Shown here one piece after another: positions 40,733 through 43,396 of a stretch of 64,000 bases of DNA. Numbering within the stretch: the first letter of the stretch is position 1; every line of letters starts with the position of its first letter. Source of the stretch: Octopus vulgaris (taxonomy: Eukaryota); NCBI GenBank assembly GCA_951406725.2, contig OX597832.1:41602001-41666000 (forward strand), given 5' to 3'. Below the pieces are notes generated by a model that worked only from the letters and a program-made list of their open reading frames with translations, did no database searches and had not been told where the DNA came from. The position numbers and the translations under genes were made by a program.

Positions 40733-42221
40733 CTCTAAAGTGTTGTGCGCTGAAGCATACCCCAGCATTTTAAGTTTTTCTGCTTTGTTTTTTTATCCTG
40801 ACATTAAAATGTTGAAATACATCTGCTGCCCTAGATATCATACAATGGCAGGATATTCTTACTCAGTGCATTAACACTCAGTACAAAGCGTTCAGCAATT
40901 GCATTATGCACGCACCCTACACTGGTTACAATTGTATCTGTTTATAAAGCTTACAATTAAGGTGGGTAAGGTCAGTTAGAGTTGTAAATGTAAATGATTG
41001 AACAAGGAATATTAATTCTTCAACAGTTACCCTAAGCTCTCTCACTCCCATATTTCACATCCTGCCCTCGTGCAAGCAGGCAACCTGTTTTATTGTGTTA
41101 AAAGCAGGTCATCGTTTCTTTAGCCTTTTAGTGACTATACTTAAATTGAAAACATCTAAAATCAAATTAATCTTGAAAACAGTCAATATTTTGAAGGAGT
41201 TTCACAAAATATGCAGCTTCTTTTATGTATGTGTCAACTAATGTATTTAAGCTGGTGTTCGGACCACAACTTAACAATAGGTTCTTTAATAAAATTATGA
41301 TTGATGGCTTTTAATTTGAATATGGACACTTTAAAAATAGACAGGTTTCTAACTGAAAAACTGAGGGGGCCTCAACTGGTATGGTTTGAAAATGCTTGAA
41401 CTTCTTTCATTTTTCACTCCATTCCTAAAATTATGTCTCTCTCCAATTATGACGCCCCTCCCCAGCAAAAAAAAGAAACAAAGAAGTACAGACAAAGGAA
41501 GGAAGGACTAAAGAAGAATGAAAGAAAGAAGGAGAGACAAAGGGGAAAAGAAGGGAAAGAAAGAAAAATTAAAGAGAGAGAGAGAGAGAAAGAAATCGTG
41601 TTCTATTTCCAATAAAACCTTTACTCGGTATTTGGAAACAAAAGGAAAGGACTAAGATACTTAACTATATACTGGAAATATATGCAAACCAAGCAAACAA
41701 ATGTTCACAGATCAGTGCTAATTAGAATAGAGTAGATTCAAAAGAAAACTGAATAAAAGGAGCCACTACAAATGAGAGCTGAATTACAAAAATAGGGTCA
41801 TTAAAAGGTTTTGTTTTCTTTACATTTTTTGTTTTATTTCTACAGGTACAGAGCTACACACATGACACACATCAGATATTTGTATATGAATTATGGACAC
41901 ACATCAGATATATGTATATGAATTATTGTCAAAAGTGTTTTTTATGGTTGGATGCAGCTTGTATATACTAATCACTCAATTATGAACTATAATTGATAGC
42001 ATCTAGTTTTCAGCTCAGTAACTAAATCAAATGATGTTGCTTGCCTAAGGAGCAAAAGACAACAAAAACTGTATTTGATTTAATAAGACTCGGAGTTTGT
42101 AGTTAAGCATGTTTAAAGTCACAGAGCAAAGAAGAAACATCAGCTGCAAAACCTGTGCCAATATGAAAATATATATTGAACACTAATAATAATGATGAAA
42201 TTTCTTAGCACTACCCTCATT

Positions 42222-42588
42222 GCGTCCCCAAAGTCCATCCCCTCCTCACCATGGTGGGGACGCTGGCAACGGGTAGTGTCAGAGCTATGCTGTCGGGAAC
42301 TTCGGTTCCTGGTAGGGCCACCCAAGGTGGATTGGTCTGACACCGAGTGGTATTAGGGCCACAACCTGGCAGACGGGGCTCTGAGGAAAATCCTTGGAGT
42401 GTCTGCTTCGGCAACCGGCGGCTCCTCGGTCGTTCTGTCCCTGCGTCTGCGGCAAACAGGATGTCTCTACATGCGGGATTGTTGGGGACCGCTTGTGAAA
42501 TCCACATATTCCCACGAAACTCCTTCCATGAGTAGAAGAAGCCGACTCAAACCACCCAGGGTGAATGTCGCCACAAGTACAAGTAAGT
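42222..42588 (+). mobile_element. Non-autonomous RTE-derived (bipartite) retroposon, GC-rich and structured
   Basis: 12-bp TSD actaccctcatt at 42210-42221 and 42589-42600; RTE 5'UTR-type motif gagctatgc...ggtagggccacccaag; short-repeat tail caagtacaagtaagt. Confidence 0.8.
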
Positions 42589-43396
42589 ACTACCCTCATT
42601 AGCAAACTTACTAAACCAAACCAAACTAACCTAGCTTAAACAGTCAATAGGAAACAGTTTAAAAATACTCTTCAGTGTGTTGCTAAACTAAAGATATTTC
42701 TGTCATGGAGAAACTAAGAATATTTAATGTGATAAACACTTTATAGGAAAAAAACAAAGTTGTCAAAAATTAACACTGCTGACACTTATTTAGCTTCGTT
42801 GAGCTAACATCTCCTTTTGATACGTCATTCAACAAACCAAAAGGGAAACTATTCATTCTTGCAACATCACGACTACACTTCCCCTGTGCCTCATAGAACT
42901 ATTTTATTTGGTTTTAAACTGCTCTATAATTTCCATAATAGACAGTTTCAATTGAATATTTTAACTGAGAATTTCAATAACACGAGAATTTGGTAGTGTT
43001 TAGATATTTTCTCTTCACATTTCTTTTCAAATAATGTTTTCACTAAAAGGAAGTGCAGACACATAAACATACAGACACACACACATATATCATCATCATT
43101 TAATGTCCCTTTCCTTACACTGGTATAAGTTGGACAGGTCAACAGGAACTGACACCAGAGGGCTGTGATGAGACCCTATATCTGCTTTGGCATGGTTTCT
43201 ACAGCTAGATGCCCTTCCTAATGCCAACCACTTCACAGAGTTTACTGGGTGTTTTTTATTGGCACCATAACACGTACACGCACACACACACACATGTAAC
43301 AGTTCACTCTGACAGCCTGCAAAGGTCATGAGCAATACCACCTTCCTCCAAAGTAACAAGTAAGAATAAAAAGAACCCCAAAATATATATATATGC

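What the first reader, a model, noticed from the sequence alone, without database searches (positions are those of the whole stretch)
42222..42588. Young, highly structured RTE-derived retroposon with an HDV-ribozyme-like 5' end
Seen: a 367-bp GC/CpG-rich insertion in AT-rich DNA with a perfect 12-bp TSD, no tRNA head and no credible ORF. It is densely structured. GCGUCCCCA (42222-30) pairs with UGGGGACGC (42255-63). GUGUCAGA/UCUGACAC closes a junction holding an 11-bp stem capped by a C(UUCG)G tetraloop (42290-42315) and a CCACC/GGUGG hairpin. A further hairpin is CUCUGAGGA-AAA-UCCUUGGAG, and a second C(UUCG)G lies at 42404-13. The 5' end echoes HDV ribozyme order: P1, P2 5' AGUCCAUC, P3 CCC, L3 starting UCCUC, GGG, P1' GACGCU, GG-CAAC, and later C-C-C-A-A followed by GGUGGAUU, which can pair with P2. 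Established: gagctatgc..gtagggccacccaag typifies RTE 5'UTRs; bipartite RTE-derived non-autonomous elements exist; HDV-like ribozymes process the 5' ends of some R2, L1Tc and RTE elements. Inference: a self-cleaving, RTE-mobilised element. Caveats: L3 is 13 nt (canonical 7-8), G1 is missing, and alternative folds compete.
Basis: partly seen in the sequence, partly recalled or inferred. Interest (0 to 1): 0.7.

Follow-up and report, generated by a model that had tools for sequence, protein, structure and literature searches.

The report
Ribozyme-headed mini-copy of an RTE retrotransposon
This is one worn copy of a short jumping element made by deleting the middle of a 3.4-kb RTE-type retrotransposon; the family begins with a predicted hepatitis-delta-type self-cutting RNA that likely sets its first base, but this copy has lost a core base and is probably inactive.

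Summary
The insertion, 12-bp TSD and RTE origin are real. I found the parent in the same genome: a decayed 3.4-kb EN+RT LINE that shares the first 321 and last 57 bases. G1 is present (42222), L3 is 7 nt, P1.1 is C-G plus A-U, P4 is a ~100-nt branched arm, the likely catalytic C is 42370 (J4/2 C-A-G-A-C) and P2 is a 4-bp CCCC/GGGG. Two sister LINE families keep this fold with different P1 sequences and J4/2 C-C-A-A or C-U-A-A; families A and B start sharply at P1. Distant RTE leaders show clear covariation of the same double pseudoknot. Weak points: P2 is short and invariant, P3 has a U-U pair, a downstream hairpin hides J4/2, 16 loci carry uncut tandem heads, and no cleavage was tested. This copy lacks the L3 G (42251). 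'Young' is overstated: copies are 2.6% diverged outside CpG and parents are broken. It is a new member of a known kind (R2 SIDEs, NARTc); this scan noted similar elements in other genomes.

The parts
42210..42221 (+). Left target-site duplication (12 bp)
   Evidence: Identical to 42589-42600
42222..42531 (+). 5' part of the parent LINE: whole 5' UTR to just past the first ATG (family nt 1-321, with an 11-nt deletion in this copy near 42446)
   Evidence: 94-97% identical to the 5' ends of full-length LINE copies L551, L557, L562; differences listed
42222..42229 (+). Predicted P1 5' strand; predicted cleavage just 5' of 42222
   Evidence: Pairs 8 of 8 with 42256-42263, pairing probability about 1.0 in the 187-nt fold; family boundary falls here
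42235..42242 (+). Predicted P2 5' strand: CCCC core 42239-42242, possible 3-bp extension 42235-42237
   Evidence: Invariant in three families, so untested by covariation; not formed in nested folds
42243..42255 (+). Predicted P3 (42243-45 with 42253-55; two C-G and one U-U) and 7-nt L3 (42246-52); this copy has A at 42251 where 59 of 68 copies have the conserved G
42256..42265 (+). Predicted P1 3' strand (42256-63) and P1.1 3' strand (42264-65, pairing with 42248 and 42247)
   Evidence: P1.1 paired in 95.8% of cells in three families; G-C to A-U swap at this pair in distant RTE leaders
42270..42368 (+). Predicted branched P4 domain (basal helix, 8-bp helix, UUCG hairpin, small hairpin); holds the RTE 5' UTR signature
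   Evidence: Pairing probabilities 0.76-1.0 for most pairs; three double changes across families; signature present in Repbase RTE 5' ends (PMC5786205 supplement)
42369..42374 (+). Predicted J4/2 with candidate catalytic C at 42370 (C-A-G-A-C)
   Evidence: C in 66 of 68 copies, 2 gapped; C-C-A-A-C and C-U-A-A-C in sister families
42375..42384 (+). Predicted P2 3' strand: GGGG core 42375-78, extension 42382-84 (weakened in this copy by A at 42384)
   Evidence: conservation between families drops just after it
42369..42407 (+). Competing downstream hairpin that hides J4/2 and the P2 3' strand (candidate attenuator)
   Evidence: Pairing probability 0.99 in the 187-nt fold; a hairpin over the same strand is predicted in both sister families
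42532..42588 (+). 3' 57 nt of the parent LINE: last codons, stop at 42562-64, short 3' UTR and microsatellite tail 42574-88
   Evidence: Shared with LINE 3' ends that translate into an RT C-terminus
42589..42600 (+). Right target-site duplication (12 bp)

Best explanation
The element is a short internally deleted derivative of a 3.4-kb RTE-type LINE in the same genome, and its first ~163 bases are a predicted HDV-like ribozyme that likely cut source transcripts just before the element's first G. Shown: the deletion joins the parent's 5' UTR (321 nt) to its last 57 nt; copies are dispersed, TSD-flanked and mostly begin at or within a few bases of P1. Inferred: host transcription ran into a source copy, the nested double pseudoknot folded during transcription and C149 (window 42370) acted as general acid; the parent's EN/RT protein then bound the retained 3' tail and inserted the RNA by target-primed reverse transcription. 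A downstream hairpin likely switches the fold off once it is transcribed, so cutting would be incomplete. This copy, having lost the L3 G, is probably a dead product.
For: Parent LINE copies share both ends and give several independent deletion classes. 14 of 26 copies found by their 3' end start at nt 1-5. Families A and B have different P1 sequences, each fully paired, and conservation starts at the first P1 base in each (family C less sharp, 9 copies). The majority sequence meets the published descriptor for G1-Y, L3 U/C/G and J4/2 C-R-R-A (PMC6326823 passages); whole-sequence shuffles fit in 0 of 3000 (strict) and 6 of 2000 (loose). J4/2 varies as HDV chemistry allows: C and last A fixed, second base A, C or U, third a purine. 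Between-family identity is 85 of 99 in P4 and 14 of 16 in J4/2-P2, then 20 of 37. In 30 distant RTE leaders on a structure-blind alignment the same topology has double changes at 24 of 35 pairs, 9 of 9 in P2, 0 of 500 shuffles; a model built from them hits this copy at E 1.9e-10.
Against: No cleavage or raw-read data. P2 is 4 bp and invariant, has probability 0.00 in nested folds, and R2 ribozymes have at least 5 bp (PMC3774820). With the 5' half fixed, shuffled 3' halves supply a J4/2 and P2 in 196 of 3000 (strict) and 315 of 1000 (loose; 60 of 1000 with a long closed P4), so their placement is not significant by itself. Within the lineage only 4 of 40 pairs show double changes, which 373 of 500 shuffles reach. 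The covariance model places the 3' end of the fold elsewhere. P3 has a U-U where 30 of 30 distant leaders have A-U. 16 loci carry one to four extra 187-nt heads that were inserted uncut. The structure tested was read by eye from the same sequences, which I chose as 28 of 79 usable loci plus 2 relics from this genome.
Confidence: 0.65

Rival explanations
1. The head is a ribozyme relic in this lineage; the 5' end is set by an internal promoter that starts at nt 1, and the fold is kept for RNA stability, translation or RT handling rather than for cutting.
For: Short P2, U-U in P3 and a dominant competing hairpin. Tandem-head copies were inserted uncut, and 9 of 16 start within 11 nt of the start of a unit, as monomer promoters would give. 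The L1Tc head is also a promoter that starts at +1 (PMC3185411 passages).
Against: The C-N-R-A pattern, P1.1 and three different but paired P1 helices persist across families about 75-80% alike; a mismatch in P3 and short stems occur in active R2 ribozymes; downstream attenuation also occurs in the active L1Tc ribozyme.
Confidence: 0.28
2. One reading: 13-nt L3, missing G1, catalytic C in the CCCAA at about 42323 and P2 from 42326-33.
For: Five contiguous pairs at 42232-36 with 42329-33 are kept in all three families.
Against: P3 and P1.1 break in both sister families; the same pairing is at chance in distant leaders; the proposed strand lies inside the 8-bp P4 helix, which forms with probability near 1; it needs a base upstream that is not conserved.
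Confidence: 0.03
3. Tandem heads mark an RNA route: double cutting frees 187-nt units that are re-ligated or copied by RT template jumping, so the family spreads partly through multimers or circles.
For: All 16 loci share one junction, with 1-4 extra units and their own flanks; the junction also appears in contigs of another organism label.
Against: All 25 scorable units carry T185 while 11 of 15 final copies carry C, and units within a locus share 0.63 non-CpG changes per pair against 0.03 between loci. This fits one nested insertion that made a dimer source, followed by DNA-level duplication.
Confidence: 0.04

Closest known systems
R2 SIDEs of Drosophila (Eickbush and Eickbush 2012, PMC3414825; abstract read)
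   Same: Non-autonomous element made of a 5' HDV-like ribozyme and the 3' end of the parent LINE.
   Different: R2 SIDEs are rare and site-specific in 28S rDNA; this family is dispersed, in hundreds of copies or more, with TSDs and an APE-type parent.
NARTc, RIME and SIDER with the Pr77/L1Tc ribozyme of trypanosomatids (PMC3185411 and PMC4035085; passages read)
   Same: Dispersed, TSD-flanked internal-deletion derivatives; cleavage at +1; P1.1 of one or two pairs; a downstream sequence that switches the fold off.
   Different: Ingi clade, 77-nt ribozyme with a short P4; here a ~163-nt fold with a ~100-nt branched P4, 8-bp P1 and 4-bp P2, and activity untested.
HDV-like ribozymes at RTE 5' ends (Ruminski et al. 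2011; paper not held, known only through citations in PMC5786205, PMC3774820 and PMC6765202)
   Same: RTE clade, ribozyme at the exact 5' end.
   Different: I could not check which RTE families that paper lists; no Rfam model matches this fold or its distant relatives.
Bipartite non-autonomous RTE elements such as RTESINE1/2, WALLSI3, Bov-A (Kojima 2018, PMC5786205; passages and supplement passages)
   Same: 5' end plus 3' end of an RTE, no RNA-derived head; the same 5' UTR signature is in Repbase RTE families.
   Different: No structure is assigned to that signature in the passages I saw; here it maps to the P4 arm of the predicted ribozyme.

Membership tests
Non-autonomous internally deleted LINE derivative (SIDE) | Shares both ends with an autonomous LINE in the same genome | tested here: met
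   Nt 1-321 and last 57 nt match full-length copies L551, L557, L562, L563
Non-autonomous internally deleted LINE derivative (SIDE) | Amplified by retrotransposition (dispersed copies, TSDs, tail, occasional 5' truncation or inversion) | tested here: met
RTE clade (parent LINE) | About 3.2-3.9 kb, one ORF of ~1000 aa with EN and RT, short 3' UTR ending in short A-rich repeats (PMC1291365 passages) | tested here: met
   3.1-3.4 kb copies; EN and RT Pfam hits in ORF pieces and in the 1035-aa homolog P0001; ORFs in this genome are broken
RTE clade (parent LINE) | RT phylogeny with named RTE references | not tested
   Closest named homologs are unannotated flatworm proteins at about 55%; no tree built
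HDV-like ribozyme | P1 of 6-7 bp starting at the cleavage site, G1-Y or equivalent | tested here: met
   8 bp (or 7 bp with a 4-pair P3) in family A, 7 bp in B; starts at the element boundary
HDV-like ribozyme | P3 of 3 bp closing a 7-8 nt L3 with U, C and G at positions 1, 5, 6 | tested here: inconclusive
   L3 met in the family majority; P3 has two C-G and a U-U in all three families
HDV-like ribozyme | L3 G present in the window copy itself | tested here: not met
   A at 42251; an R2 ribozyme lacking this G did not cleave (PMC3774820)
HDV-like ribozyme | P1.1 of 1-2 bp | tested here: met
   C-G and A-U kept in three families; G-C/A-U swap in distant leaders
HDV-like ribozyme | J4/2 with catalytic C in C-R-R-A or C-N-R-A right after P4 | tested here: met
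   CAGA, CCAA, CUAA in families A, B, C; chance placement 6.5-31.5% with the 5' half fixed
HDV-like ribozyme | P2 of about 5 bp or more stacked on P3 | tested here: inconclusive
   4 G-C pairs plus a 3-bp extension beyond an internal loop; invariant, so no covariation
HDV-like ribozyme | Mg2+-dependent self-cleavage lost on C-to-U change | not testable with these tools
   No assay; only assembled contigs were available

The most novel reading that the evidence does not exclude
The conserved RTE 5' UTR signature, which also ends up as a SINE body, is the P4 arm of a widespread HDV-type ribozyme class that Rfam misses; in this lineage it works with a 4-bp P2 and a built-in off-switch hairpin, so cutting is leaky and tandem-headed copies are inserted.
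Probability: 0.4. Interest if true: 0.58.

Novelty: new member of a known kind. Interest (0 to 1): 0.4.

Why it matters
It gives a parent LINE, several deletion derivatives and two sister families in one genome, a ready natural series for asking whether RTE elements set their 5' ends by self-cleavage or by an internal promoter. If active, it widens the known tolerance of HDV-like ribozymes (8-bp P1, U-U in P3, 4-bp P2, 100-nt P4) and gives a structure to a long-noted RTE 5' UTR motif. The arrangement itself is already known from R2 and L1Tc.

Tried and rejected
Rfam: no HDV-family hit for the element, for 7 distant relatives or for one copy of each family. My interim reading that J4/2 and P2 were deleted came from aligning the wrong five bases; a pattern built on it gave 28 hits against 29 in the control and 0 of 28 near the RTE signature, and sister families overturned it. 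RVT_1 and distant-RTE protein searches returned other LINE families whose tails do not match. A loose pattern in viral contigs gave 120 or more matches that I treated as chance and did not examine; the tight one gave 0. A motif-anchored pairing script anchored 1 of 100 loci through a regex error and was dropped. The strict descriptor missed 79 of 79 distant leaders and 8 of 8 family C copies because its windows were too narrow; the loose one fitted 29 of 79 and 4 of 8. Pairing between 5' UTR end and 3' tail as a cause of the deletions: 6 of 7 LINE copies no better than shuffles. Expression: no RNA holder listed; contigs cannot show RNA ends. No empty-site joint at this locus in four runs, and no contig bridges the element, so age by species sharing is open. 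Ruminski et al. 2011 could not be read, so overlap with its RTE list is unchecked.

Full report
Numbering: nt 1 = window 42222; up to nt 224, window position = 42221 + nt. The genome (2.8 Gb, 227 contigs) looks like an octopus; that is my inference.

Observation. The insertion, its GC content (56.7% against 35.5%) and the identical 12-bp TSD are as described. The stated helices are in the MFE fold, but the whole element folds no better than shuffles (z -1.53); the first 187 nt do (z -2.79). Rfam has no match. The element is one of a family: 1708 first-look candidates, 40 scored at 91-93%; these candidates overlap with sister families, so the copy number is not fixed. An exact 19-nt 5' motif with one flanking constraint occurs 166 times. 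Among 83 distinct copies in the loci I held, 68 were near full length and differed from their majority by 2.6% outside CpG and 9.5% at CpG (biased to best hits). A repeat study of Octopus vulgaris calls insertions recently active at 2% or less (PMC13282606, first third read).

Parent. A longer variant led to LINE 3' ends with the same tail, translating into an RT C-terminus, and then to full-length copies of 3.1-3.4 kb (L551, L557, L562, L563). They share nt 1-321 (5' UTR to just past the first ATG) and the last 57 nt. All have broken ORFs; pieces hit EN and RT families. Size, single ORF and short repeat-ended 3' UTR fit the RTE description in PMC1291365 (passages). The closest named homologs are flatworm proteins at about 55%, and an unnamed 1035-aa protein at 79%. 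Several deletion classes exist: among 47 parsed junctions 35 are of the 378-nt type, 4 of about 400 nt and 8 longer.

The fold. Repbase RTE 5' ends carry the same motif (PMC5786205 supplement, 6 passages seen). On a MAFFT alignment of 28 of the 79 usable loci, chosen by eye, plus 2 old relics from this genome, an HDV-type double pseudoknot pairs in 87.7% of cells against 75.8% in shuffles and 35-50% when slid, with double changes at 24 of 35 pairs, including 9 of 9 in P2 and the single P1.1 pair. I read that structure from these sequences, so the test leans towards it. A model from this alignment finds the window copy at 52.4 bits but misplaces its 3' part.

Two sister LINE families in this genome (B, C) settle the register for this lineage. 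P1 is nt 1-8/35-42 in A and a different 7-bp helix in B; L3 is 7 nt; P1.1 is C26-G44 and A27-U43; P4 spans 49-147; G148 and C149 follow; P2 is C18-C21/G154-G157. J4/2 reads CAGAC, CCAAC and CUAAC in A, B, C. A published descriptor fixes G1-Y, L3 U/C/G and C-R-R-A (PMC6326823 passages); the A majority meets these. Conservation starts at the first P1 base: G in 33 of 54 A copies, C in 18 of 27 B copies; C is less sharp with 9 copies. By eye, 70 of the 100 listed matches keep nt 1-2, with all four bases at -1. Of 26 copies found by their 3' end, 14 start at nt 1-5 and 7 are cut or inverted beyond nt 50. Identity across families falls from 14 of 16 in nt 148-163 to 20 of 37 just after.

Limits. 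Only 4 of 40 pairs show double changes within the lineage, no more than shuffles give on that measure (373 of 500). P2 is short and invariant. With the 5' half fixed, shuffled 3' halves fit the descriptor in 6.5% (strict) to 31.5% (loose) of trials. P3 has a U-U. Once nt 164-187 exist, a hairpin hides J4/2 and the P2 strand at probability 0.99; a hairpin over the same strand is predicted in B and C. Downstream sequence also lowers cleavage by the active L1Tc ribozyme (PMC3185411 passages; PMC4035085 passages). R2 ribozymes tolerate a P3 mismatch but have P2 of 5 bp or more (PMC3774820 section); a 3-bp P2 with a C1-A mismatch went with very low activity. The window copy has A for the L3 G at 42251 and fails the descriptor; 15 to 18 of 39 copies starting at nt 1 pass.

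Tandem heads. An exact junction pattern gave 21 matches at 16 loci: one to four 187-nt units, each a whole predicted ribozyme, ahead of a normal copy, in unrelated flanks. All 25 scorable units carry T185, 11 of 15 final copies C185, and units within a locus share more changes than between loci. The simplest account is one nested insertion that made a dimer source, later duplicated in DNA. These RNAs were inserted uncut at the inner junction, so cutting was incomplete at best.

Mechanism and verdict. Shown: origin by internal deletion and spread by retrotransposition. Inferred, about 0.65: the family head self-cleaved at nt 1 during transcription, leakily. Main rival, about 0.28: a relic fold with an internal promoter. 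The arrangement is known from R2 SIDEs (PMC3414825 abstract), NARTc/RIME and bipartite RTE elements, and RTE ribozymes are cited in PMC5786205, PMC6765202 and PMC3774820 (passages). I found no paper on this family: octopus+ribozyme+HDV gave 0; searches listed none on it by title or abstract start. The library lacks most subscription papers, Ruminski 2011 and Repbase or Dfam, where the family may be filed. Other papers seen: PMC4908430, PMC8501958, PMC9115989 (passages), PMC6007223 (abstract). Earlier notes of this scan report the same kind of element in other genomes and none like this sequence.

Noticed in passing
G000 C14, C20, C28, C29, C30, C34 (L214-L234): Tandem-head subfamily at 16 loci; 13 lie on the small contigs C28-C30 and C34, and those on C29, C30 and C34 share a variant at nt 2. 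The family as a whole is sparse on the largest contigs (2 listed matches on C1, 14 on C18).
   Followed up: partly
L617-L706: Two sister LINE families (B, C) with the same ribozyme architecture; B also has short derivatives of about 350-460 nt and at least one tandem head with a different junction (L626).
   Followed up: partly
L647, L648, L649, L661, L668, L670, L671: A family C subfamily whose P1 and P2 5' strands are replaced by an unrelated shared upstream sequence, so it spread without an intact predicted ribozyme or as part of another element.
   Followed up: no
L551:895-1914 (-): The parent RT's closest named homologs are from tapeworms and flukes (about 55% and 44%); horizontal transfer is possible and untested.
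   Followed up: no
L442, L443, L444, L446, L447, L448: Older decayed RTE leaders of the distant type (long P2) survive in this genome.
   Followed up: partly
L257, L260, L287, L290: Metagenome loci with RTE leaders joined to ORF C-termini, i.e. independent internal-deletion derivatives with the long-P2 ribozyme type.
   Followed up: no
L249, L252, L253, L265, L314: A distant RTE leader family with an insertion of about 15 nt in L3.
   Followed up: no
family A insertion sites: T just before nt 1 in 28 of 54 copies, and frequent 2-4 nt microhomology between the TSD end and the element start; cause not worked out.
   Followed up: partly
L388-L417, L427; L065-L093: Two unrelated young LINE families with many intact ORFs (1095 aa and 949 aa); their tails differ from this element's.
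   Followed up: no
PMC5786205 supplement: The horse SINE2-1_EC body aligns to RTE leaders from about L3 through J4/2, the part that maps to the predicted P4 arm, without the P1 5' strand.
   Followed up: no
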